Origin: Chiloscyllium plagiosum
Lineage: Eukaryota
DNA length: 37,142 bases
NCBI RefSeq assembly: GCF_004010195.1
Contig: NC_057755.1
Span: 12,528,954-12,566,095 of the forward strand
Reading direction: 5' to 3'
A program made the translations under genes and the position numbers. Within the stretch, counting starts at the first letter, position 1; every line of letters begins with the position of its first letter. A model generated the notes under the pieces. It did not search any database. It had not been told where the DNA came from and saw nothing but the letters and a program-made list of their open reading frames with translations. Of the stretch, positions 4,069-36,427 are shown piece after piece.

Positions 4069-4711
4069 ATCAGCCACTCAGCTTGTATCTCTTGATGATC
4101 ATGTATGTTGTGTTAAGTTTCAAACCTCATACCAACCACCCCACATAATATTCAGTAATGATGGATTTCCTTATTCTATTTCCTATGGCTTTGAAATTGT
4201 TGGATGTTGGGTGTTTACAAGTGTTGTATAGAATCATTTGTTATTGGCATCAGTCTTAAGAAAACCAAACTTGTCCTCTCCCTCTAAGCTGTGTGAAGCC
4301 ACTACAACATGACATGAATTGCAGCATTAAATTCCAGTTCCAGAAGTCATGGTTGCACATGACCTTGGAGAAGGAATGAAATTGCAAGGAATGCTGCCTC
4401 AAAGTGTGTTTAAACATGAATATATATGATGAGCAACATGTTGTGAACAATGGGGTCATTTGTAATAAAACAAAATTATCTAGCTTGTATCAAAGAAAAA
4501 TGTCAAAATTACTGCCTAGATTGTCACCAAGCAATTACCTAAGCAAAGACATCTTCAAATCTGTATATTTCTTTCTGCAGTACAATTTGATGTTGTCCAT
4601 TTGTTCAGAAATACTATATGTCTAGCTCTTCAAGTAAATGGTGGAACATTATTTAACAGCAACACTTCTGTTCACCCAAATATTACAAACCAGCTTCTCA
4701 ACTTCTTGTAT

Positions 4712-4835
4712 TTTGAGGAAGGGTCACCGCATCAGAAATGTTAACTTTGATTTCTCTTCACAGGTGCTACCAGATGTGCTGATCTTTTCCAGCAACTTCT
4801 GTTTTTGTTTCTTAATCTTCAATTGTTTTTATTCC
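4712..4835 (+). mobile_element. PLE terminal repeat relic (family C)
   Basis: ttgaggaagggtcaccgcatcagaaatgttaac...ttttccagcaacttctgtttttgttt. Confidence 0.65.
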
Positions 4836-5234: not shown

Positions 5235-7642
5235 ATGTGACCCACCCTTCCACTTCCAAGAGCAGAGGTCCCAGAACAGATCCCCATGGAACACAACAGG
5301 TCACCGAGCTCCAGGCTGAATACTGTCCATCTACTACCACCCTCTGTCTCTATGGGGCAGCCAACTCTGTATCCAGACACCAAATTTCCCTGTATCCCAT
5401 GCCTCCTTACTTTCTGAATAAGCCTACTATCGGGAACCTTACCAAATGCCTTTCTAAAATCCACGTGCACTATATCCGCTGATGTGTTTTGTCACATCCT
5501 TAAAGAATTCAAACAGGCTTGTGAGGCATGACCTGCCCCTCACAAAGCCATGCTGACTATCTCTAATCAAAATATGCTTTTCCAAATAATCATAAAATCT
5601 GTCTCTCAGAATTCTCTCCAATAATTTGCCCACCACTGATGTAAGACTGATCGGTCTGTAATTCCCAGGGTTAGCCCAATTCCCTTTCTTGAACAAGGAA
5701 ATAACATTTGCTACCCTCCAGTCATCTGGTACTACACCAATGAGGAAGCAAAGACCATCACCAAAGGCATAGCAATCTCTTTCCTTACTTCCCGTAGTAA
5801 CCTCCTGTCTGGTTCAGGGAACTTATCTATCCACATGTTTTTCAAAACTTCCAGCACATCCTCCTTCTTAGCATCAACCTGATTGAGCGTATCAGCCTGT
5901 TTCATGTACTCCTCACAAACTACAAGGTCCCTCTCAGTAGTGATTACTGAAGCAATGTAATCATAAAGGACCGCCCTTACCTCTTCCGACCCCAAGCACA
6001 AGTTCCCTCCACTGTCCCCGATCAGCACTACCCTTACTACGGCCATACTCTTGTTCCTCACATAAATGTAGAATGCCTTGGGATTTTCCTTAATCCTACC
6101 CACCAAGACTTTTTCATCCCCCCCCCCCCCGCTCTCCAAAGTCCATTCTTCAGTTTCTTCCTGGCTACCTTGTAACCCTCTAGAGCCCTGTCTGATTCTT
6201 GCCTCCTCAACCTTAAGTAAACTTCCTTCTTCCTCTTGACTAGGTGTTCCACATCTCTTCTCATCCAAGATTCCTTCACAGTACCATCCCTTTCTTGCCT
6301 CAGTGGGACAAACCTATCCAGCACTCGCAGCAAGTGCTCCCGTAAACAGTCTCCACAATTCTGTTGTACATTTTCCTGAGAACATCTGTCCCCAATTTAT
6401 GCTCCACAGTTCCTGCTTAATAGCATTGTAATCTCCCCTCCTCCTATTAAATATTTTACCATACCGGCTGCTCCTATTCCTCTCCATGACCATAGTAAAG
6501 GTCAGGGAGTTGTGATCACTATCACGGAAATGCTCTCCCACTGAGAGATCTGACACCTGACCTGGTTCACTGTGAAGCACCAAATTCAATATGTCTTCCC
6601 CTCTAGTCGACCTATCTACATATTGAGTCAGGAATCCTTCCTGAAAACACCTGACCAAATCTGCGCAAACAAACTATTTGCACTAAAGAGGTTCCAATCA
6701 ATATTAGGGAAGTTGAAGTCACCCATGACAACAGCTCTGGGCGGGACGGTGGCTCAGTGGTTAGCACTGCTGCCTCACTGCGCCAGGGACCTGTGTTCGA
6801 TTGCAGCCTCGGGCGACTGTCTATGTGGAGTTTGCACATTCTCCCCGTGTCTGCGTGGGTTTCCTCTGGGTGCTCCGGTTTCCTCCTACAGTCCAACAAT
6901 GTGCAGGTCAGGTGAATTGACCATGCTAAATTACCCATCGTGTTCAGGGATGTGTAGCCTAGGTGCTAGGTGAAATATAGAGTAATAGGGATTGGGAATG
7001 GGTCTGGATGGAATACTCTTCGGAGAGTCAGTGTGAGCTTGTTGGGTGGAATGGCCCGTTTCCACACTTTAGGGATTCTATGAACTCTGTTACTTCTGCA
7101 CCTTTCCAAAATCTGCCTTCCAATCTGTTCCTCCATTTCTCTGTTGCTATTGGGGGGTCTGCTTCTTTCCTGTTTCTGACTTCCACCCTCCTCGATGGCA
7201 TCCCTTCCTGCAGCTGTTACACTATCCCTGATTAGCAATGCCACTTCCTCACCTCTTTTACCTCCCTGCGCCTTTTTCTCGAAAAGTCTAATTCCCAGAA
7301 CATCCAACAACCATTCCTGCTCCTGTGATATCCAAGTCTCTACAATGGCGATAACATTGTAGCTCCAAGTACTCATCCATGCTCTAAGTTCATCAACCTT
7401 ATTCCTGACACTTCATGCATTAAAATAGACACACTTCAACTCATCGCACTGACTGCAACTTTGCCTATCAACTGTCTATCCTTCCTCACAGACTGTCTGC
7501 ATGCTGTATCTGCCTATTCACCAGCCACCCCATCCTCGGATCCATAGTTCCAGTTCCCATCCACCTGCCAAACTAGTTTAAATCCTCCTGAAGAGCTCTA
7601 GCAAATCTCCTGCCCAGGATACTGGTATCCCTCCAGTTCAGG
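5235..7642 (-). mobile_element. CR1 LINE fragment (end of ORF1, APE endonuclease and N-terminal RT), interrupted by an HE1 SINE
   Basis: YNVIAIVETW, DSDHNSLTF, KENPKAFYIYV, GNYRPISLTSVVGKLLERIL, SQHGFVRGRSCLT and VDFRKAFGKVP; ORF1 end LNWRDTSILGRRFARAL near 7570-7640. Confidence 0.95.
6739..7083 (+). mobile_element. HE1-type tRNA-derived V-SINE
   Basis: A box tggctcagtgg, B box gttcgattgc, V-domain gtgtggagtttgcacattctccccgtgtctgcgtgggtttcc and a CR1-like 3' tail. Confidence 0.92.
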
Positions 7643-11682: not shown

Positions 11683-11789
11683 CAGTTACTGAGGAAGGGT
11701 CACTTGACCCAAAACATTAACTCAGATTTCTCTCCAAAAATGCAGCTAAACCTGCTGAGTTTTTCCAACAATTTCTGTTTTTGTTTCAG
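11683..11789 (+). mobile_element. PLE terminal repeat relic (family C) with a CpG-decayed hammerhead
   Basis: CTGAGGA A GGGTC actt GACCC aAAA caTT aac; stem II intact, GAAA changed to AAAA and CG changed to CA. Confidence 0.72.
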
Positions 11790-12096
11790 CCAGTTACCAC
11801 TCCATCAATCTACTCTTGATCATCAGTAAAGTGATGGAAGAAGTTATCAACGTTGCTATCAAGCAAGACTGCTTACTGATGCTCAGTTTGGATTCCACCA
11901 GGCCTCTCAGCTCCTGACCTTATTAAAGCCTCTGTTTAAACATGAACAGAAGAGCTGAATTCCAGAGGGGACAGTGATTTCCCGTAACATTGTTTGGCTG
12001 CATTTGACTGTGTGACATCAGGAGCCCCAGAAAATTAGACTCAATGGGAATTGGGGAAAATTATCCATTGATTGGAGTCATACCCAGCAGAAAAGG

Positions 12097-12414
12097 GGGG
12101 CACAGTTGGTCAGTGGCTAGCACTGCTGCCTCACAGTGCCAGAGACCCAGTTTCGATTCCCACTTCGGGTGACTGTCTGTGTGGAGTTTGCATATTCTCC
12201 TGGTGCCTGTGTGGGTTTCCTCCGGGTGCTCCGGTTTCCTCCCACAATCCAAAGATGTGCAGGTCAGGTGAATTGGCTATGCGAAATTGCCCCTAGTGTT
12301 AGGTGCATTAGTCATGTAAATATAGGGTAGGGGAGTGGGTTACTCTTCAGAGGGTCGGTGTGGACTTGCTAGGCCAAATGGCTAGTTTCCATACTGTAGG
12401 GACTCTAATCGAAT
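12097..12414 (+). mobile_element. HE1-type SINE with a 7-bp TSD (GAAAAGG)
   Basis: tRNA head, V-domain and CR1-like tail; gaaaagg at 12090-12096 and 12415-12421. Confidence 0.92.
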
Positions 12415-12820: not shown

Positions 12821-13016
12821 CAGCACAGTCGAGAGTGTAGTGCTGGAAAAACACAGTAGGTCAGGCAGCATCCGAGGAGCAGGAGAGTCGACGTTTCGGG
12901 CAAATGCCCTCCTGAAACATCGACTCTCCTGCTCCTCGGATACTGCCTGACCTGCTGCGCTTTTCCAGCACTACACTCTTGACTCTAATCTACAGCATCT
13001 GCAGTGCTCACTTTCA
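12821..13016. mobile_element. Palindromic PLE-terminus element (family A)
   Basis: Inverted arms 12827-12900 and 12911-12984, followed by the tail cagcatctgcagtgctcactttc. Confidence 0.85.
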
Positions 13017-13024
13017 CCCACATA

Positions 13025-13972
13025 AGGAGAAAGTGAGGACTGCAGATGCTGAAGACCATAGTGGAAGTGGCTGCAGCGACAGCAGCTCCGGGGGTGGAAC
13101 TGGCGCGCCGGGCAGAAGCGGCGCTGGTCCTGGCGGCCGTGTATCTGTCGCGATGATCTTCCTGGCGATCGTGGTGGCTGTTGTCCGTGCGGCGGTGGGG
13201 GCGGAAGTGACGTCACTGTTCGCCATGGCGGTGGTGGCTGCAGCGGCCGCGTGGGCAATGGCGGTTCTGGAGGTCGCGAGAAGGTTCAGGAACGGTCGAG
13301 GAATCCGGAGTGTGGGGGTGAGTGCATGAAAGTTTTTTGTACTTACTTTCTTTGATGTTCAATATGGCTAGGAAAAACGTTTGTTCAGTGTATGAATTCT
13401 TCTGAGGATGAAGAACAGCAAAAGTCCTTTGCAGGTCTTGGAGAGTGTTGTCCTGAGCTGGGGCAGGGCTGACTGCAGGGAGTGTAGGTAGCGGTGCAAG
13501 GCCGCGAGCGTGGAATAGAGGATCCGGAGGGAGGTCTGTTCCTGGAGGCTTCGGATTTGTTGCAGGTACCGGTTGTCCTGGTTGGGTCCAAATTGTGTTG
13601 GTCTGAACGTAGTCCGGAGTCCATGCGGGGTCAGTCAGTTCCGTAGGCAGGTGCTGAGGAAGGAGATGTGGCTGTGGTAGCGAGTCTGTTTCAGGACGTG
13701 GCTGAAGAGCTTCAGGGCAGAGGAGATGAACTGGGGGGGGTGCAGTGAGAGAGAGAGGAACTCACTGAGATCCTTGTAGAGGGAGGAGGAGAGCTTCTTC
13801 AAGGTAGGCATCCTTGCAAGAGGATTCACAGTAGGTTAAGATCAACTAGGAGAAAGTGAGGACTACAGATGCTGGAGATAGTTTCCTGAAGAAGGGCTTA
13901 TGCCCGAAACGTCGATTCTCCTGCTCCTCAGATGCTGCCTGGCCTGCTGTGTTTTTCCAGCACCACATTTTT
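13025..13972 (-). mobile_element. Penelope-like element 5' portion (ORF N-terminus) with an inverted terminal repeat
   Basis: Minus frame MPTLKKL...KQTRYHSHISFLSTCLRN*LTPHGLRTTF matches the PLE N-terminal H..FL..C...P.GL motif; ~32 bp tail present twice (13025-13056, 13848-13879); plus-strand hammerhead repeat at 13881-13972. Confidence 0.85.
13886..13913 (+). ncRNA. Minimal type I hammerhead ribozyme motif (core intact)
   Basis: CTGAAGA-A-GGGC ttat GCCC-GAAA-C-GTC; stem I is weak in this copy. Confidence 0.75.
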
Positions 13973-14014
13973 CACCCACATAAGAGCACATCAGAGATTA
14001 GGAATCTCTGAATT

Positions 14015-15642: not shown

Positions 15643-16254
15643 GGGTGGCATGGTGGTTAGCACTGCTGCCTCACAGCGCCAGAGACCCGGGTTCAATTCC
15701 CGCCTCAGGTGACTCTCTGTGTGGAGTTTGCTCATTTTCCCTGTGTCTGCGTGGGTTTCCTCCCACAATCCAAACATTTTTTTTAGAATTACTTACAGTG
15801 TACCTAAGGTCCTTCGGCCCAACAAGACCACACCGACCCACCGAAGCACAACCCACCCATTCCCCTACATTTACCCCTTACCTAACACTACGGGCAATTT
15901 AGCATGGCCAATTCACCTAACCTGCACATTTTGTTTGGACTGTGGGAGGAAACTGGAGCACCCGGAGGAAACCCACGCAGACACGGGGAGAACGTGCAAA
16001 CTCTACACAGTCAGTCGCCTAAGGCGGGAATTGAACCCGAGTCTCTGGCACTGTGAGGCAGCAGTGCTAACCACAGTGCCACGTGCCGCCCAAAAATGCG
16101 CAGGTTAGGTGGATTGGCCACATTAAATTGCCCATAGTGTTAGGTGAAGGGGGAAATGTGGGGAATGGGTCTGGGTGGGTTGCGCTTCGGAGGGTCAGTG
16201 TGGACTTGTTGGGCCGAAGGGCCTGTTTCCACACTGTAAGTAATCTAATCTAAT
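15643..16254 (+). mobile_element. HE1-type SINE split by an antisense HE1 copy
   Basis: Head 15643-15777, resumes at 16092, ends in taatctaatctaat. Confidence 0.9.
15783..16091 (-). mobile_element. HE1-type SINE (full length, nested)
   Basis: Reverse complement begins gggcggcacgtggcactgtggttagc; B box gggttcaattcc; tail cactgtaagtaattct. Confidence 0.92.
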
Positions 16255-19394: not shown

Positions 19395-19793
19395 ATGCAA
19401 TGGGGAAAGACCACCATCCAAGGTCTTTCTACCAAAGTTAAATGGGAGTCAGTTCAGTTATCAGACCCTCCCAGTGCCTAAAATATATACAATATATTCA
19501 GTTAGCAGACCCTCCCAGTGCCTAAAATATATGCAATGTATTCAGTTAGCAGACCCTCCCAGTGCCTAAAATGAATGCAATGTATTCAGTTAGCAGACCC
19601 TCCCAGTGCCTATATTCTTGTACAAGTAACAAATGCTTTGGGTTTGTTTGCCAGAAAGTCAGACTTCAGTGTTTGTTTATTGTTTATTGTTTATTGTTTC
19701 TTATGCCATAGCACAAAACCAAACTGCTTTTGTGACTATATATGTTTGTATATAAAGATATTTTTATAAATAAAGTATATTTTTGAAATAAAA
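19395..19793 (+). mobile_element. Tx1-like LINE 3' end
   Basis: QWGKTT C-terminus at 19398; 3' UTR homologous to the reverse complement of 16290-16380; ends ataaataaagtatatttttgaaataaaa. Confidence 0.8.
19453..19612 (+). repeat. 44-bp minisatellite, ~3.6 copies
   Basis: Unit ttcagttagcagaccctcccagtgcctaaaatatatgcaatgta starts at 19453, 19497, 19541 and 19585. Confidence 0.97.
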
Positions 19794-22798: not shown

Positions 22799-22923
22799 CG
22801 ATCCATTGACTGTGGGATTGCTTGCCTCTATCTGTTACATGCTGCCACCACCCTGACCTGCATATAGTCCTCTGTTGTAGCTTAACCAGGTTGACACCAC
22901 CTCATTGGGTATGCAGGTACTGG

Positions 22924-23460
22924 GCTGAAAAATGTGTTGCTGGAAAAGCGCAGCAGGTCAGGCAGCATCCAAGGAGCAGGAGAATCGACGTTTCGGGCAT
23001 AAGCCCTTCTTCAGGAATGAGGAAGGTGTGCCCAGCAGGCTAAGATAAAAGGTAGGGAGGAGGGACTTGGGGGAGGGGCGTTGGGAATGCAATAGGTGGA
23101 AGGAGGTTAAGGTGAGGGTGATAGGTGGAGAGGGGGTGGGGGCGGAGAGGTCGGGAAGAAGATTGCAGGTCAAGAAGGCGGTACTGAGTCCGAGGGTTGG
23201 GACTGAGATAAGGTGGGGGGAGGGGAAATGAGGAAGCTGGAGAAATCTGCATGGATGCAGTAAATGATGTGTGTGGAGGTGCAGGTGAATTTGTGACGGA
23301 TATGGAAGGATCTCTTGGGGCCTTGGAGGGAAGTGAGGGGGGGGAGGTGTGGGCGCAAGTTTTGCTTTCTTGCGGTTGCAGGGGAAGGTGCCGGGAGTGG
23401 AGGTTGGGTTGGTGGGGGGTGTGGACCTGATGAGGGAGTCACGGAGGGAGTGGTCTTTAC
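22924..23460 (-). mobile_element. Penelope-like element 3' fragment with an internal deletion of the GIY-YIG domain
   Basis: SLRDSLIRS..PGTFPCNRK and GPKRSFHIRHKFTCTSTHIIYCIH, then a jump to the ORF end, a C-rich 3' UTR and the terminal repeat. Confidence 0.9.
22987..23014 (-). ncRNA. Minimal type I hammerhead ribozyme motif (core intact)
   Basis: Reverse complement attc-CTGAAGA-A-GGGC ttat GCCC-GAAA-C-GTC-gatt. Confidence 0.75.
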
Positions 23461-25204
23461 CATCACCAGACCATGGCAACTACTTTCCCACCTCAACCAC
23501 TTCCACTGGCAGCTCATTCCATATGCGTACCACCCTCTGTGTAAAAAAGGTTGCCCCTCAGGTTCCCTTTTATTCTTTCCTCTCTAACCTTAAACTGATG
23601 CTGTCTCGTCTGCGATTCCCCAACCCTGGGAAAAAGACTGGGAGTGCATTCATCCTATCCATGCCTCTTATCATCTTATAAACTTCTATAAGATCCCCCC
23701 TCAGCCTCCTATGCTCTAAAGAAAAGTGTCCCAGCTTGTCCAACCACTCCCTATAACTCAGAAGATTGAATCCTGGCAACACCTTTGCAAACTTTCTTCT
23801 GCACTCTTTCCAGTTTAATAACATCCTTCCTATAGCAAGGTGACCAAAACTGAGCACAAAAGGCCTCACCAACGCCCTTTACAGCTATAATATAACTTCC
23901 CAACTTCGATACTCAATGACCTGACTGATGAAAGCCAGTGTGCCAAAAGCCTTCTTCACTGCCTGTCTACTTGTGACTCCACTTTCAGAGAACCTTGCAC
24001 TTGAACACCAAGGTCCCTATGTTCCACTACACTCCTTAAGGCCCTACAAAACCCCTACCTTGATTTGACTTTCCAAAATGCAAGGCCTCACATTTGTCTA
24101 TATTAAACTTCATTTGACATTGCTTGGCCCACTTCCCTGATCAGGTCCTGCTCCAATTTCTGATAACCTTCCTCACTGTCCATGAAAATGCCTATTTCTG
24201 TGTCACCTGCAAACTTACTAATCATGCCTTGTACATTCTCATCCAAATCATTGATAAAGGTAACAAACAGCAATGAGCCCTGCAACACTCCTGAGGCACA
24301 TCACCAGTCACAGACCTCCAATCTGACCAGTATCCTTCCATTATTATGCTCTGCTTCCTACCATCGGGCCAATTTGCCAGCTCCCTTGGATTCCATGTGA
24401 TCTAAACCTTCCAGAGCAGCCTACCATTTGGAACCTTATCAAAGACCTTACTGAAATCCATACAGGCTATGTCCTGCCTTTATCAACCTTCCTGGTCACT
24501 TCATCAAAAAAACGCTAACAAATTTGTGAGACATGATCTTCCACACACAAAGCTATGCTGATTACCCTTAATCAAACCATGCCTTTCCAAATGCATGTAT
24601 ATCTTATCCCTCAGAATCTTCTCAATTAACCTACCCACCACAGATGTTAGGCTTACTGGTCTATAGTTTCCAGGTTTTTCTTTATAGCCTTCTTGAATAA
24701 GGGCACAACATTTGCTACCCTCCAGTCTTCCGGGACCTCATCCGTGGCTACTGATAATGCAATTTCTTCTCTAGCCTCTTGCAGGGTTCTTGGATATAGA
24801 ACAATACACAATATTTTCAGCCCACGATGTTGTGCCGAGCATTTATCTTAATCTAAGATCAACCTAACCTACACACCCCTCAATTTACTGCTGTCCATGT
24901 GCTTGTCCAGCAGTCGCTTAAATGTCCCTAATGTCTCCAACTCTGCTACCACCACTGACAGTGCATTCCACGTACCCACCACTCTCTGTGTAAAGAAACT
25001 ACCTCTGACATCTCCCTTATATCTTCCTCCAATCACCTTAAAATTATGACCCCCATGACAGCTTTTTCTGCCCTGGGAATATGCCTCTCATTACCTTGTA
25101 CACCTCTATCAAGTCACCTCTCTTCCTTCTTCTCTCCTGTGTGAAAGGAGAACATCTCCAGCACATCCGCACCAATCAACCCCACCGCCCCGTCACCAAA
25201 TAGT

Positions 25205-25504
25205 GGGCAACACAGTGGCACAGTGGTTAGCACTGCTGCCTCACAGTGCCAGAGACCTGGGTTCATTTCCCGACTCAGGCGACTGACTGTGTGGAGTTTG
25301 CACATTCTCCGTGGGTTTCCTCCGTGTGCTCCGGTTTCCTCCCACAGTCCAAAGATGTGCAGGCCAGGTGAATTGGCCATGCTAAATTGCCCGTAGTGTT
25401 AGGTAAAAAGGGGTATGGGTGGGTTGCGCTTCGGCGGGTCGGTGTGGACTTGTTGGGCAGAAGGGCCTGTTTCCACACTGTAAGTAATCTAATCTAATCT
25501 AATC
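25205..25504 (+). mobile_element. HE1-type SINE nested in the PLE
   Basis: tRNA head, V-domain and (taatc)n tail. Confidence 0.92.
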
Positions 25505-25889
25505 AAACACTTCAACTCCCTCACCGACTCCTCTGAGGACATGCAGGTCCTGGGCCTCCTCCATCACCCCTCTCTTATCACCTAACGCCTGGCAGAAGAA
25601 CACTTCACCTTCAGCCTCGGGACCCTCCAACCCCATGGCATCAAATGGATTTCACCAGTTTCCTCATTTTCCATCCCCCCACCTTACCCCAGTTCCAACC
25701 TCCCAGCTCAACACCATCCTCATGACCTGTCCCATCTGTCTATCTTCCTTCCCCTCTATCCACTCCACCCTCCCCTCTGACCTATCGCCTTTACACCCAC
25801 CTCCATCCATTTATCGCACTCTCAACTACCTTCCCCCAAAGCCCCACACCCCTCCCATTTATCTTTCCACCCCTGAGGCTCCCAGCATC

Positions 25890-25925
25890 ATTCCTGATGA
25901 AGGGCTTTTGTCTGAAATGTCGAAT
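25890..25925 (+). ncRNA. Hammerhead ribozyme motif (slightly decayed)
   Basis: attc-CTGATGA-A-GGGC tttt GTCT-GAAA-T-GTC-gaat; 4-bp stem I, G-U pairs in stem II. Confidence 0.65.
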
Positions 25926-26162
25926 TTCCTGCTTCTCGGATGCTGCCTGACCTGCTGTGCTTTTCCAGCAACACAATCTTGATTCCAGTGTGAAAAGCCC
26001 TAGCTCACTCAAGCTCTCTTCATAAGACAAGCCCTCCAACCCAGGCAGCATCCTGGTAAATCTCTTCTGCATCCTCTCTAACATATCCAGGACCAGGAGA
26101 TTTTTTTTTCACCTTCATACATTCTAATACATCCAACATCTCGTTTCCTGAGATATAGACAG

Positions 26163-26262
26163 TCCCCAAGCTATCACCACTAACTTCCTCAAGCTATCAC
26201 CACTAACTTCCCCAAGCTATCACCACTAACTTCCCCAAGCTATCACCACTAACTTCCCCAAG
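26163..26262 (+). repeat. 23-bp minisatellite, ~4.3 copies, inside a CR1
   Basis: tccccaagctatcaccactaact at 26163, 26186, 26209 and 26232, plus a partial unit. Confidence 0.97.
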
Positions 26263-26777
26263 TTCCTAAGTCTTCATGTTTTTTTCCTCCATGATAAACA
26301 CAGAAGAAAAACTTCCATTAAGGACCTTGCCCATCTCCTGCAGTTCTACACAAACATGCCTAGTTTGGTCTTAGAAGGGTCCTACTCTCTCTCTAGTAAT
26401 TCATTTTCCTTCAACATACTTCAGGAATCTCTTTGGATTCACCCTAACCTCCTACCCCCTCTTCACCCTCCTGATTTCCTTCTTCAGTAAATTTCTGCTT
26501 CCCCTATATACCTCCAGGAATCCCCATGATCCCCATGTACCTTAGCCATACCCTTTTTCTGGTCAAAGCCTCAATATCTCCTTGATGCTTACACATACAA
26601 TTTTGATGTCAAGGACAGTGACTACCACCTCGCATCTCTGGAATTGAGCTCTTTGTCCCTGTTTAAACGAAAGCTTTAATTAAGTCACAAGTTGAGTGGC
26701 CCTAGTGCAACTCAAACTAAGGGTTATTGTTAAGCAAGTGTTCGCAATGATAGCATTGTTGATGATCCTTTATTCAG

Positions 26778-26966
26778 TGCAGCAGGTCAGGCAGCATCCA
26801 AGGAACAGGAGAATCAACGTTTCCGGCCTGAGCCCTTCTTCAGGAATCCTGAAGAAGGGCTCAGGCCCGAAATGTCGATTCTCCTGCTCCTTGGATGCTG
26901 CCTGACCTGCTGTGCTTTTCCAGCAACACATTTTCAGCTCTGATCTGCAGTCCTCACTTTCTCCTA
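26778..26966. mobile_element. Palindromic double-hammerhead PLE-terminus element (family A) with a 14-bp TSD
   Basis: Palindrome centred at 26846; TSD gatcctttattcag (26764-26777) / gatcctttatccag (26967-26980). Confidence 0.88.
26844..26881 (+). ncRNA. Hammerhead ribozyme motif (plus arm of the palindrome)
   Basis: gaatc-CTGAAGA-A-GGGC tcag GCCC-GAAA-T-GTC-gattc; perfect 5-bp stem I. Confidence 0.7.
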
Positions 26967-27502
26967 GATCCTTTATCCAGGCCAATCAGAGGCCACTAGC
27001 TCTTCATTCCTCAACAGGGAGAATGTGACTGTTGCTGTTAATGCTGAGGGCCACACCACAAACAAACTCCCCCCGGGACTAGTTTTTCTTAAATTAGTTT
27101 GCTGAAAGAATAGGAAAGCCAAATTTAGCAATGTGAACACTTGGAGTCCAGTGGACTCTTGGATCTATGTCAATTTAAAATAATGGCAACATAAAATTTC
27201 AAGGTAAACTATCTTAAGCTGTTGCAAAGTTATAAGAGCTGTTAACTGCTCTATTAGAAACGAACTTAAACAATTTGCAATATGAAACTTAAGGGGAGGG
27301 CTTTGTCAATAATCATTAAATTCTTCCTTGAAGCATTTTGTGGTAGTTGTGAGGCAACAATATTGACTTAAAACAAAACCACATCTCATTCCAGGTCTCC
27401 TTTTACTTTTACTTTGAACCTTTATCAAAAGTTGGAACTAGACTGGTTGTGGTTTGTTTACTGTGTGTGAGTTTACTCAAGGTTTGGCAAATCAAATAAT
27501 TA

Positions 27503-30945: not shown

Positions 30946-31567
30946 CGACTGAGCTTTATAAGGAGATATTAGAGTAAGTTGCTAAAGGTTTGGGTTGAAC
31001 AGATAGATTTTTAAAAATGACTGTAACTGTGAAAAGAGCCGAAGAAGATGTTTTACAGGATTTTCAGACTAATGCAACTGAAGGCACAGCTGCCAATGGT
31101 GCAGTGAGGAAAATCAGGGACGCGTAACAGTCCAGAGTTAGAGAAATATCACTGAGATTAAAGTGTAAAGGATTGATTCACTTACCCTTCTTAAACAAAT
31201 ACCCAGCTGAGCAAAGAACAAGGGTCTTTATGTGTTACTTATATGAACACCACTAGTGACAGGACCAGAGTTGTTTCTTGATATTGCCTGAAACGGAAAG
31301 ATTTCATCAACTTTGATTCCAAATTCCACCCTTCCATCAACATTACATGGTGCATTTCAGACTTTTCTGTGATTTTTGTATCTCCTCTTCTGGGAATATG
31401 CTGTCAATCAACATCTACTCTAATTCTCCTGCCTCACACAACAACCTCAACTACATTTCTTCCTGCAGATGCTGCTGGGTCTACTGAGTTTTTGTTTTTG
31501 TTTCAGATTTCCAGCATCCTCAGTTTTTTGTTTTATTTTGGTGTTAACTCACTGCCACATCTCTCCC

Positions 31568-31772
31568 ATGATTTGGAGGTGCCGATGTTTGACTGGGGTG
31601 TACAAAGTTAAAAATCACACAACACCAAATTATAGTCCAACAGGTTTGTTTAGAAGCACTCGCTTTCAGAGTGCTGCTCCTTCATCAGGTGGAGGAGCGA
31701 CACTCCAAAAGCTAGTGCTTCCAAATAAACCTGTTGGATTATAACCTGGTGTTGTGTGATTTTTAACTTTGT
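31568..31772. mobile_element. Palindromic hammerhead-bearing element (family B) with a TSD
   Basis: Arms 31600-31680 and 31694-31774; flanked by acatctctccc (31557-31567) / acatctcttcc (31773-31783). Confidence 0.85.
31657..31691 (-). ncRNA. Hammerhead ribozyme motif, family B (cleavage triplet mutated)
   Basis: Reverse complement cac-CTGATGA-A-GGAG cagca CTCT-GAAA-GC-GA-gtg; the other arm retains GCTAgtg. Confidence 0.6.
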
Positions 31773-33474
31773 ACATCTCTTCCAGGTATGCCTTCCATGA
31801 AAAAGCTCTGCTTCGCTCCAGGATTTCTATTCTAATCTTGTTTTTTGCTCTCTGTCCCTACTTTCATTTTCTTCCCTAGTATCTGACACAGACTTTGCCA
31901 AAACCTGTTACTATATCTGCATCTTAATCCCCAGGAACTGCCTCCAACTTCGACTCACCCCATGTGGATTCTGACTGAAGTTTCATATTTCGAATCCACC
32001 CAGGATCAAAGGTATCTTGGTGATGTACAACACTCCTCAGAAAGCTGTTCTTGCCACATCCTGGGAGCCACACTATGTGTTAGTGCATAGCACCCTTGAC
32101 ATCAGCGCTGCCTCACATTGCCTCAGAGCTGTTCCGCCCCCATCCCAGCTCCATTTCATTCTCCAGCTTGTTCAATGTTCTAACAAGAAAGCTTTCCTCT
32201 TCCTTTCAGGCATTAAGGAAGGCAAGGCACAACAACTCTGAGATACCCACACCCCATTTGGAACCTCCCTCCCTCCCACTTCCCTTTGACACCATTCTTT
32301 CTCCTGACCTCCAACTCTTGTTAAGTGTTTACTATCCCTTTTGACCTTCTGCTTTCAGCTGAATGTTTTATAATCAGCAAAAATCCCTCTGTACCTCCAC
32401 CTCGATATGTTTCAGGTGGACATGATGTGAAATCTTCTTTTGTCACCCCTATCTCCATTCCAATGGATTTCAGTACCCACAGATGCCTTCACTTGCCTCC
32501 AATGCTCTCCTTCAACCTGGACCCCTCTCTTTTACTCGTAGTCAACTTGTTCATTGAGAACTGTTGATATGACAACAGTCACCTTAATTTCTTTATCCCC
32601 CTCACCCATTCAAACCTATCTCCCTCTGAACTGACTGCACTCGATGCTCTCAGATCCAAACCTGACTTTGTCACCAAGCCTGCCAACAAGGGTGGTGCTG
32701 TTATTGTCTGGCATACTGACCACTACATTGTGCAGACTGAGCACTAGTTCTGAGATACCTGCGGCTACCTCCCTTGACCATGACCCTACCATGGAATACC
32801 AGGCTTTTGTGTCCATGACTGTCATCACCCTCACCTCATCTGGGATCTCCCCATGACAGCCTCCCAGCTCATAGTCCCCCAAACCCACTCTACCTTCTCC
32901 CTAAAATCCACAACCAGACCTACCTGGGCAGACTGACTGTTTCTGCCCCACGGAACGTATTTCTTCCTACCTCGACTTGATTTTTTTTCTCACTGACCAG
33001 TCCTTGCCCACATACATTGATGATTTTTCTGACAGTTTACATTGGTTTCAAAATTTCCAGTTTGTGGCTCTAGCCACCTCCTCTTCACCATAGACGTGCA
33101 ATACCTTTACACAGCCATCCCCCATCAGGATGGTCTCAGGGCTTTCTGTTACCTCCTGGAAAGATGACCTGAACTGACCCCATCCATCATCACCCTCTTC
33201 CCACCTGGCTGAGTTGTCCTCACTTTGGATAACTTCTCCTTTAATTCCTCTCACTTTCTTCAGGTCAGAGATGTGGTCATGGATATCCTCATGAGGCTGT
33301 CTTTTGTTTTGTGCGTGGAATATTCCTTGTTCCAATCTTATCGAGCCCTACCCCATAACTCTTTCTCTAGTGCATTGATGACATCATTGATGTTGCAACC
33401 CTTGCTTGTTCTGAACTGGAAAAAATTATCTATTACGCCTTTCATTTTCACCATTCCCTTGCCATTTCTTCATT

Positions 33475-35104: not shown

Positions 35105-36427
35105 GAGCAGAATTCTGGGTAATCCAAGGTGGAGAATGGGAAAAAAACTGTAGTTTTAAGAGCTGCTCCTTTTTTGAGGTATTTTATGTGTTGGAAGAGA
35201 TTTTCTCAAATTCCAGGAGCAGTAAATAATGTTTTATAAGCTGTTGCATTGTTTTCGAACTTTGGGGGGAGAATAAGATCAAAACATTGGCACTTTAAAA
35301 AGGAGGAAGACAGACAAAGGCAGAGATCACGTGGTCAGAGAAAGGAACCTAGACTGCTGTCTGACACAGCAGTGAATCTGAACAGCTATTGCCTTAGCTG
35401 TTTGAGTTCAAGTATGTCTGGACATCAGAGTGCATCTAGGAAAAGTTAACAAACAGCTGACCTTGAACGAACCTGTATGGGAGAGTTCACAATGGGAGAA
35501 ACTAAGTGCATAGTTTTTAAAGTGTAACCTTGCTGTAAATCTACGATAGTGAGTAGAGCGGGTTTTTTTCTCATTATATGTTTTATTGAGATCTCTCCCT
35601 TGATTAAGTTTTAAAAATATAAAACATAGGTACTAAGTTAGCCTGGAGCAATGTTTTGTTTTCCCTGATGAAGGGCTTATACCCGAACCGTCAATTCTCC
35701 TACTCCTCAGATACTGCCTGACCTGCTGTGCTTTTCTAGCACCACACTCTCGGCAGTGTACTTTTAGAACAATAAGGAGGTGCTATTTTCTGGGTCTGTA
35801 GATTGTTAAGGTGCAAAGATGGCCTTTAGCAGAGTGATGTGCTCTTCCTGTCGGATATGGGAGATTAGGGAGAGTTTCAATGTAACTGATGATTATGTCT
35901 GCAGGAAGTGTCTTTGATTGTGAATCCTATTATATTGCATGGATCAGTTGGAGTGTCAGTTAAAGGCAATAAGGAATTTACAGAAGCTAGTGGTGTGGAT
36001 GGATGGTAGGTATAGGGAGGGACAAAAACTGCAGTACAGTTAAGTAGATAGGTTACCTCCAGAAAAAATAGGAGAGGGAGGCAGGTAATGAAGGAGTCTC
36101 CTGTGCTATCCCCATCTCAAACAGGTATGCTGTTTTGGAAAATGTAGGGGGTGATGGACTCTCAGGGGAATGTAACATGAACAGCCAAGTTTCTGGTACC
36201 AAGAATGGCTCTAATTTAACAAAGGATATGTCAGGTTCCAAGCGATTGATTGTGATAGGGGACTCTCTAGTCAGATACACAGACAGACATTTCTGTGCCT
36301 GGCAGTGAGAAACCAGGATAGTGTGTTGCCTCCCTGGTGCCAAGATCAAGGATATCTCAGAGAGGGTGCAGTATGTTCTCAAAGTGGAGAAGGGCCACCA
36401 GGAGGTTATTGTACACATTGGAACTAA
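35105..36427 (+). mobile_element. CR1 5' UTR and ORF1 pseudogene (zinc finger/leucine zipper plus SGNH esterase)
   Basis: From 35819: MAFSRVMCSSCRIWE...YVCRKC, IPISNRYAVL, IVIGDSLVR, VCCLPGAKIKDI and VIVHIGTN; 5' boundary approximate. Confidence 0.88.
35662..35752 (+). mobile_element. Solo PLE terminal repeat (family A) with a decayed hammerhead
   Basis: CTGATGA-A-GGGC ttat ACCC-GAAc-C-GTC...gcaccacactctcg inserted in the CR1 5' UTR. Confidence 0.82.

What the first reader, a model, noticed from the sequence alone, without database searches (positions are those of the whole stretch)
26764..26980. 189-bp palindromic element carrying two back-to-back hammerhead motifs, flanked by a 14-bp TSD
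Seen: ~68-bp inverted arms meet at a single base (CAGGA-A-TCCTG, centre 26846). Each strand reads outward through CTGAAGA-A-GGGC-tcag-GCC(C/G)-GAAA-(C/T)GT(C/T). The right arm continues into the PLE tail, and the unit sits between gatcctttattcag and gatcctttatccag. There is no coding sequence. Both arms share the private loop TCAG (TTAT or TTTT in other copies), so one arm was copied from the other. The inversion also gives the plus ribozyme a perfect GAATC/GATTC stem I. Established: PLEs carry hammerheads and often have inverted 5'-truncated termini; retrozymes are non-autonomous hammerhead retroelements built from direct repeats. Inference: a MITE-looking but retro-mobilised, both-strand ribozyme hairpin element. 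It is either a self-propagating non-autonomous family or a recurrent minimal product of PLE fold-back integration. I do not know of a description of this form in sharks but cannot check the literature.
Basis: partly seen in the sequence, partly recalled or inferred. Interest (0 to 1): 0.75.

Follow-up and report, generated by a model that had tools for sequence, protein, structure and literature searches.

The report
Head-to-head Penelope stub in shark genome
This 189-base mirror-image insert is two copies of the ribozyme-bearing end of a Penelope-type jumping gene joined head to head between a duplicated target site, a layout already described for that class; it was likely built on landing from two short DNA copies of one RNA, and its ribozyme motifs are predicted to be locked in a hairpin, so it is probably not a new self-copying element.

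Summary
In detail: arms match at 64 of 70 positions around 26846 and the TSD matches 13 of 14. The arms are the pLTR of an endonuclease-bearing Penelope-like element (PLE); sister copies adjoin pieces of an RT + GIY-YIG ORF. Inverted pLTR, one-sided tail and TSD is the published PLE layout. It has no terminal inverted repeats and no same-strand tandem ribozymes, so it is neither MITE nor retrozyme. Both hammerhead motifs are decayed and predicted to be buried in a -135 kcal/mol hairpin. The window holds two more such palindromes, one from a second PLE family. In public contigs, junctions cluster in a few registers just 5' of the hammerhead core, while this copy's loop letter is rare (0.4-0.5% of depth). 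This points to a junction hot spot rather than descent from one palindromic master. Likeliest mechanism (inferred): both nicked target strands prime cDNA on the same RNA species, both copies run to its 5' end, and they are end-joined. No empty site was seen, and there was no genome to count in. The scan has reported this structure many times before, in this genome and others.

The parts
26764..26777 (.). Left copy of the 14-bp target-site duplication; its last 2 nt (AG) also fit the element
26776..26845 (-). Left arm: inverted, 5'-truncated pLTR copy without tail; native sequence runs on to 26847, 4 nt upstream of the hammerhead C3
26816..26843 (-). Minus-strand minimal hammerhead motif; G10.1-C11.1 pair lost (G-G), cleavage triplet GUU
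26846..26847 (.). Head-to-head junction: one unpaired A; T26847 fits both arms (1-nt overlap)
26847..26916 (+). Right arm, part that pairs with the left arm; begins 2 nt upstream of C3
26849..26876 (+). Plus-strand minimal hammerhead motif; position 15.2 is U, so the ACGU dimer palindrome is broken; predicted cut 26876|26877
   Evidence: motif rules from PMC4209133
26917..26966 (+). Unpaired 3' part of the pLTR with the one-sided tail; 9-nt deletion near 26943-26946
   Evidence: (table 7)
26967..26980 (.). Right copy of the TSD; first G also fits the element
13012..13984 (.). Comparator: same-family insertion with 15/15 TSD; minus-strand body (tail + ORF start, internally deleted) joined head to head to a hammerhead arm that has no partner in the body
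31557..31784 (.). Comparator: head-to-head palindrome of a second PLE hammerhead family, 11/12 TSD, extension on one side only, junction at the 5' edge of the core
12826..13011 (.). Comparator: same-family palindrome whose centre lacks most of both cores; tail on the right arm only; possible decayed TSD
25493..25982 (+). Comparator: 3' end of the parent PLE (GIY-YIG C-terminal piece, 3' UTR, hammerhead with native upstream sequence)
22919..23480 (-). Comparator: 3' end of the parent PLE with native sequence upstream of the hammerhead

Best explanation
The element is a gene-less insertion of two 5'-truncated pLTR copies of a Penelope-like retrotransposon, joined head to head between a 14-bp target duplication, and it was likely made in one event in which both nicked target strands primed short cDNAs on the same RNA species, each likely running to the RNA's 5' end just before the hammerhead core, and the two cDNA ends were then likely end-joined. 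Shown: the anatomy, the PLE parentage, the TSD, the clustering of junctions 1-4 nt upstream of C3, short target/element overlaps at the outer ends. Inferred: staggered nicks 14 nt apart; priming from each 3' end at a different internal site (tail end on the right, about 60 nt further upstream on the left); run-off at a transcription start (an initiator-like TCATTC with its A at -4); joining through a 1-nt overlap. The ribozyme motifs are predicted to be passengers: any RNA through both arms would form a 70-bp duplex.
For: [quoted passage not shown] Layout: published for PLEs (PMC3846280; PMC8557442). Two-strand priming: purified Anolis PLE protein nicks and extends both target strands and starts RT at two internal sites that define the tail; hammerhead cleavage is not needed (PMC11167929). 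Independent arm: in the 13012-13984 insertion the inverted hammerhead arm has no counterpart in the body (best match 24 nt at E 0.10), and it ends at -3. Hot spot: 4 of 4 truncated family arms in the window with an intact core stop at -1 to -4; centre variants +T and +TCAT stand in contigs of about 430-470 (species A) and about 150 (species B) times single-copy depth; 8 of the 16 listed centre-crossing pieces have no gap, the other 8 have 1-3 gap letters. Outer-end overlaps of target and element: 2 and 1 nt here, 2 and 5 or more nt at 13012-13984, 3 nt at 31773. Rare loop G in both arms indicates one template. No hairpin primer is predicted at the junction end of either putative cDNA.
Against: No genome was available, so junctions, outer ends and arm variants could not be read together copy by copy; contig depth is not a copy number. 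The loop G sits at the level of background mutation, so it could equally be an RT error copied by fold-back or a later arm-to-arm conversion. The same junction register occurs at other loci (110 nt across the centre, 16 differences, no gap), as a family model also predicts. The RNA start is not shown: the initiator motif is recalled and short, and the second family's upstream sequence has no such match; in D. virilis Penelope the start lies well upstream of the hammerhead (PMC2377424 with PMC4209133). A species-B contig leaves the window's sequence after 26779 for 35 nt, so the left end, and its 2-nt overlap, may have been changed after insertion. No empty site was found.
Confidence: 0.62

Rival explanations
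1. Fold-back or template switch: one cDNA was made from the tail to the hammerhead edge, then primed on itself (or on an antisense template) to write the inverted arm, which was joined to the other target end.
For: Both arms share a variant at background frequency, as an RT error copied once would give. Self-priming is the published proposal for palindromic PLE junctions (PMC3846280 Discussion).
Against: A 1-nt centre leaves no room for a priming loop, and neither putative cDNA end is predicted to pair. The inverted arm at 13881-13969 has no partner in its insertion. The left end abuts the TSD with a 2-nt overlap, like a primed end. Trimming of a hairpin loop after nicking is not excluded.
Confidence: 0.16
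2. Collapse of a longer insertion: the usual inverted pLTR + pLTR-ORF-pLTR unit was inserted, and recombination between the two direct pLTRs later removed the ORF.
For: Gives exactly this end product from the published unit; solo pLTRs are attributed to recombination or deletion in PMC3846280. Internal deletions are seen in neighbouring copies.
Against: The direct repeat is only about 130 bp; three short palindromes of two families lie in 37 kb; internal RT starts near the RNA 5' end give stubs directly. This rival still needs the head-to-head junction to be made at insertion.
Confidence: 0.12
3. Self-propagating non-autonomous hairpin family: a palindromic master is transcribed through both arms and copied whole by PLE RT.
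For: A few junction classes recur at high depth (+T, +TCAT), and the window's own register occurs at other loci in both species.
Against: No-gap pieces from other loci differ by 5-9 letters in 52-62 nt and the loop G is rare, so descent from such a master would need the same change in both arms. In-window palindromes differ in junction, outer ends and family. RT would have to copy through a 70-bp duplex.
Confidence: 0.08
4. A functional both-strand ribozyme, selected to cut host or element RNA from either direction.
For: The plus motif alone folds stem I and stem II with probability above 0.95.
Against: In the whole element these pairs have probability below 1e-16; each motif has lost a conserved feature; minimal PLE hammerheads need a same-strand partner and cut poorly (PMC4209133); the arms show free CpG decay.
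Confidence: 0.02

Closest known systems
Insertion unit of endonuclease-bearing Penelope-like elements: inverted 5'-truncated pLTR, one-sided 30-40-bp tail, TSD (Adineta Pen2a/Pen3a, PMC3846280; general scheme PMC8557442; D. virilis Penelope PMC2377424)
   Same: Head-to-head pLTRs, palindromic junction, tail on one end, TSD, pLTR from an RT + GIY-YIG element.
   Different: No ORF between the pLTRs; TSD 14 bp against 8-10 bp in the rotifer cases; junction pinned 1-4 nt upstream of the hammerhead core, which the passages read do not describe.
Minimal type I hammerheads of metazoan PLEs (PMC4209133)
   Same: CUGANGA and GAAA boxes, bulged base between 9 and 10.1, no helix III loop. That paper also notes pairs of minimal hammerheads about 100-700 bp apart on opposite strands in Schistosoma.
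   Different: Here the two cores are 5 nt apart and inside one duplex; helix II is 4 bp; each motif has lost a conserved feature.
Poseidon element of Anolis (PAc) in vitro (PMC11167929)
   Same: Two internal RT start sites giving short and tailed ends; activity on both target strands; hammerhead dispensable.
   Different: The paper does not show joining of two cDNAs or inverted products in the text read; the clade of the shark element was not determined.
Non-LTR retrozymes (PMC7229834; bioRxiv 10.64898/2026.07.22.740005)
   Same: Short, non-coding, PLE-related, type I hammerhead, long TSD.
   Different: Retrozymes are same-strand tandem repeats that release monomeric and circular RNA; this is an inverted pair with opposite-strand motifs.
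L1 twin priming (recalled, not checked in a paper here)
   Same: Second target strand primes internally; two cDNA ends are joined with short overlaps.
   Different: L1 inversions hold non-overlapping RNA segments and a poly(A) tail; here both arms cover the same segment. The 13012-13984 neighbour has the non-overlapping form.

Membership tests
EN+ Penelope-like element insertion | Repeat is the pLTR of an element with RT and C-terminal GIY-YIG ORF | tested here: met
   Through sister copies. GIY-YIG score 20.8 is just under the Pfam cut-off of 22.6.
EN+ Penelope-like element insertion | Inverted 5'-truncated copy adjacent at the 5' end (head to head) | tested here: met
EN+ Penelope-like element insertion | Tail on one end only | tested here: met
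   Right arm runs to the tail end; loose ends pile at 26925-26934 and after the tail motif, about 40-45 nt apart (table 7).
EN+ Penelope-like element insertion | Target-site duplication | tested here: met
   13/14, score above all 400 random pairs
EN+ Penelope-like element insertion | Empty orthologous or allelic site | tested here: inconclusive
   Both species laid carry the tail joined to the right flank; the insertion predates their split.
EN+ Penelope-like element insertion | ORF within this copy (autonomous element) | tested here: not met
   189 bp, no part of the ORF; it is a stub of the family, not an autonomous copy.
Poseidon versus Neptune clade | RT phylogeny | not tested
   No tree was built.
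Minimal type I hammerhead | Core boxes and bulged base 9/10.1 | tested here: met
   Both strands; Rfam models give no match.
Minimal type I hammerhead | G10.1-C11.1 pair and palindromic 15.2-16.2 | tested here: not met
   Minus motif has G-G at 10.1/11.1; plus motif has U at 15.2.
Minimal type I hammerhead | Can adopt the fold in its own transcript, with a same-strand partner | tested here: not met
   Predicted pair probabilities below 1e-16 in the element; nearest same-strand family motif is about 950 bp away.
Minimal type I hammerhead | Self-cleavage | not testable with these tools
   Needs an in vitro assay.
Non-LTR retrozyme | Same-strand tandem units each with a hammerhead | tested here: not met
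   Inverted pair; definition.
Non-LTR retrozyme | Abundant monomeric or circular RNA | not testable with these tools
   Only a polyA single-cell run was on hand.
MITE | Terminal inverted repeats at both ends (definition recalled) | tested here: not met
   Best 9 of 15 and 13 of 30 over 25 offsets; the inverted arms are internal and asymmetric.
Self-propagating palindromic family | Copies share junction, both outer ends and derived variants | tested here: inconclusive
   Junction register shared; loop variant rare; ends and variants could not be read per copy.

The most novel reading that the evidence does not exclude
The recurring junction classes are amplified families: a hairpin RNA made of two back-to-back pLTRs is copied whole by the Penelope enzyme, with its ribozymes locked by their own antisense arm. 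That would be a non-autonomous, inverted-repeat retroelement class distinct from retrozymes and MITEs.
Probability: 0.08. Interest if true: 0.68.

Novelty: new member of a known kind. Interest (0 to 1): 0.3.

Why it matters
As an object it is an ordinary, decayed PLE stub. Its value is as a footprint: how PLEs make their inverted ends is described as undefined in the papers read (PMC8557442, PMC11167929). Short palindromes with fixed inner ends, two classes of outer ends and target overlaps make two-strand priming against fold-back testable from a genome alone, and predict where the element's RNA begins. If transcribed within host genes, such 70-bp hairpins would be double-stranded RNA substrates (not tested). 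The scan has already noted the same structure many times, so this copy adds one more case and little new information.

Tried and rejected
Whole genome: none held. Rfam at E up to 1: 7 weak miRNA-hairpin matches, all far below gathering scores, no hammerhead. Metagenome scans for the junction and for the arm: 0 matches each. Pfam on 7 window frames or pieces: nothing significant. Homolog search with the 59-aa C-terminal piece: 0 of 5 candidates passed. No RNA holder was listed for the locus. RNA lay: run X21 (about 2% read) gave 295 reads, 269 of them only partly on the stretch; 194 have loose ends at 26847 with the native upstream sequence; 22 cover 26846 away from their ends; none of 228 carries this copy's loop G; no pile of read starts or ends; X22 gave 0 reads. 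A polyA single-cell library cannot map 5' ends or small RNAs, so this says nothing on the RNA start, cleavage or silence. Empty site: not seen, both species carry the insertion's right junction. No tRNA genes in the window. Assembly artefact rejected: the arms differ by independent CpG-type changes, are asymmetric, and are bounded by a TSD. Chance rejected. MITE and retrozyme rejected (membership tests). Notes near this place: none; by sequence: none.

Full report
Observation. The palindrome is centred on A26846. The arms 26776-26845 and 26847-26916 agree at 64 of 70 positions; four differences are CpG-type (two per arm) and two are other single changes. The flanking 14-mers match at 13 positions, scoring 11 against a maximum of 8 in 400 random boundary pairs. 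The insert is 189 bp and folds into one hairpin of -135.2 kcal/mol, z -16.4. Public contigs join the left flank to the left arm and the tail to the right flank, but none of the listed pieces spans the locus. Asymmetry, independent decay and the TSD argue against an assembly artefact.

Parentage. The arm sequence has five other long copies in the window. At 13846-13879 the same tail runs into a frame whose best named relatives are carpet-shark proteins (83% to a Hemiscyllium protein), so the host is likely a carpet shark. [quoted passage not shown] The same protein matches DNA upstream of the sister hammerheads at 23458-23351 (E 0.004) and 25493-25669 (E 3e-4 for the single comparison). The repeat is therefore the pLTR of an endonuclease-bearing PLE. 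Its clade was not determined.

Ribozyme motifs. Rfam finds no hammerhead. By motif, both strands fit the minimal type I pattern of PMC4209133, including the bulged base before helix II. The plus motif has U at 15.2, breaking the dimer palindrome; the minus motif has lost G10.1-C11.1 and has a GUU triplet. Minimal PLE hammerheads need a same-strand partner and cut weakly, and cleavage is dispensable for insertion in vitro. I read the motifs as passengers.

Is it one family or a repeated product? In the window, a scan for short-spacer inverted repeats found four: this one; a same-family palindrome at about 12826-13011 with a different centre; a palindrome of a second PLE hammerhead family at 31557-31784 with an 11/12 TSD and a one-sided extension; and a tail-to-tail contact at 13021 made by two adjacent insertions. 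In public contigs of two related species, centre variants +T and +TCAT stand at about 430-470 and about 150 times single-copy depth per contig (rough, since contig depth is not a copy number). Of the 16 longest listed pieces crossing the centre (of 2032 + 3279 laid), 8 have no gap and 8 have 1-3 gap letters, with 4-9 other differences each; gap positions are not shown, and only 1 of the 16 meets the tool's 31-letter bridging rule. In one search one other locus, seen in two individuals, spans 26801-26910 without a gap and with 16 differences. So the window's junction register is shared. Its loop G is not: 0.5% and 0.4% of depth, about the level of the other random changes at that site. A rare change in both arms on a common junction is most simply read as one monomeric template plus a junction hot spot; descent from a palindromic master would need the same change twice. 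This is an inference: letters of individual copies were not visible.

Mechanism. Four of four truncated family arms with an intact core stop 1-4 nt upstream of C3; the two remaining intact copies carry the native upstream sequence, which has an initiator-like TCATTC with its A at -4 (consensus recalled; absent in the second family). The predicted cut site is 28 nt further downstream, so cleavage does not explain the inner ends. Outer ends fall in two groups about 40-45 nt apart (table 7), matching the two internal RT starts and the tail of PMC11167929, whose protein nicks and extends both target strands. Target and element overlap by 1-5 nt at the outer ends of three insertions. The 13012-13984 insertion (15/15 TSD) is the most telling neighbour: its inverted arm covers -3 to about +88, its body starts at about +97, and the arm has no partner in the body; simple fold-back cannot give that, though a later deletion in the body weakens the point. 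At the target junction the two native runs overlap by one base, with no room for a priming loop. I therefore favour two target-primed cDNAs on the same RNA species, both running to its 5' end and end-joined (0.62), over fold-back (0.16), collapse of a longer copy (0.12) and a self-propagating family (0.08).

Against my reading. The shared loop G is equally what an RT error plus fold-back, or later conversion between arms, would leave. The RNA start is unshown, and in D. virilis Penelope the start lies 46 bp before an intron whose end maps to the hammerhead, a different arrangement. A species-B contig departs from the window after 26779 for 35 nt, so the left end may have been shortened later. 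No empty site was found: both species carry the right junction, with about 4% flank divergence (17 differences in 457 nt).

Literature. PMC3846280 (passages and Discussion read) describes inverted pLTRs with tail and 8-10-bp TSDs, palindromes at inverted junctions, and proposes self-priming. PMC8557442 (passages) gives the general scheme and calls the cycle undefined. PMC4209133 (parts 1-2 of 4) notes opposite-strand hammerhead pairs 100-700 bp apart. PMC11167929 (parts 1-2 of 4), PMC7229834 (passages), PMC2377424 (passages) and bioRxiv 10.64898/2026.07.22.740005 (part 1 of 5 and passages) were also used. Eight searches listed no paper on ORF-less pLTR palindromes in sharks or on twin priming in PLEs; most hits were seen only as listings. 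Subscription journals, Repbase and Dfam were not searchable, and no supplements were read (those of PMC11167929 and PMC4209133 may show such structures). L1 twin priming, the MITE definition and the initiator consensus are recalled.

Earlier scan notes. My reading before looking was a head-to-head pLTR pair from two-strand priming. Notes report the same structure at many loci in this genome and in at least 10 genomes, with the same reading; they are unchecked AI notes and not independent support. Their idea of a capped RNA start led me to look for the initiator motif and to state run-off as the stop; I could test that only in part.

Verdict. Real, well-formed, and a member of a known kind: the shortest case of the PLE inverted-pLTR insertion. 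Interest 0.3, for the mechanistic footprint rather than for a new element.

Noticed in passing
window 13012-13984: PLE insertion with a perfect 15-bp TSD that landed at the right end of the 12826-13011 palindrome, apparently inside that element's decayed TSD; its inverted hammerhead arm and its body cover adjacent, non-overlapping pLTR segments, as in twin priming.
   Followed up: partly
window 31557-31784: Palindrome of a second PLE hammerhead family inserted just before the start codon (31788) of a third, decayed PLE whose RT pieces lie at about 31894-33350.
   Followed up: partly
table 5c, window 26967/26936 to 26877: Contig joints that go back from the pLTR tail to exactly the predicted hammerhead cut site (depth 316, 266, 466): possible tandem units starting at the cut site, retrozyme-like.
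   Followed up: no
table 8, X14 record 9, window 26474-26779: Species-B contig leaves the window's sequence after 26779 for 35 nt; the left arm may be longer in that species.
   Followed up: no
window 26848-26865: The rare loop G makes a 5-bp inverted repeat (CCTGA/TCAGG) that would pair the CUGA box with the loop; it could be a locally templated change.
   Followed up: no
window 35664-35758: Solo family copy truncated 1 nt upstream of C3, with no convincing TSD (score 2).
   Followed up: partly
window 15645-16254, 6739-7087, 12095-12414, 25214-25498: Dispersed SINE-like repeat with an inverted pair 200 nt apart at 15645-16082; resembles shark HE1-type SINEs (recalled).
   Followed up: no
window 26163-26277 and 19453-19612: Young minisatellites with 23-bp and 44-bp units.
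   Followed up: no
window 4700-4800, 11690-11790, 31466-31530: Older, diverged copies of related pLTR sequences with decayed hammerhead-like cores.
   Followed up: no
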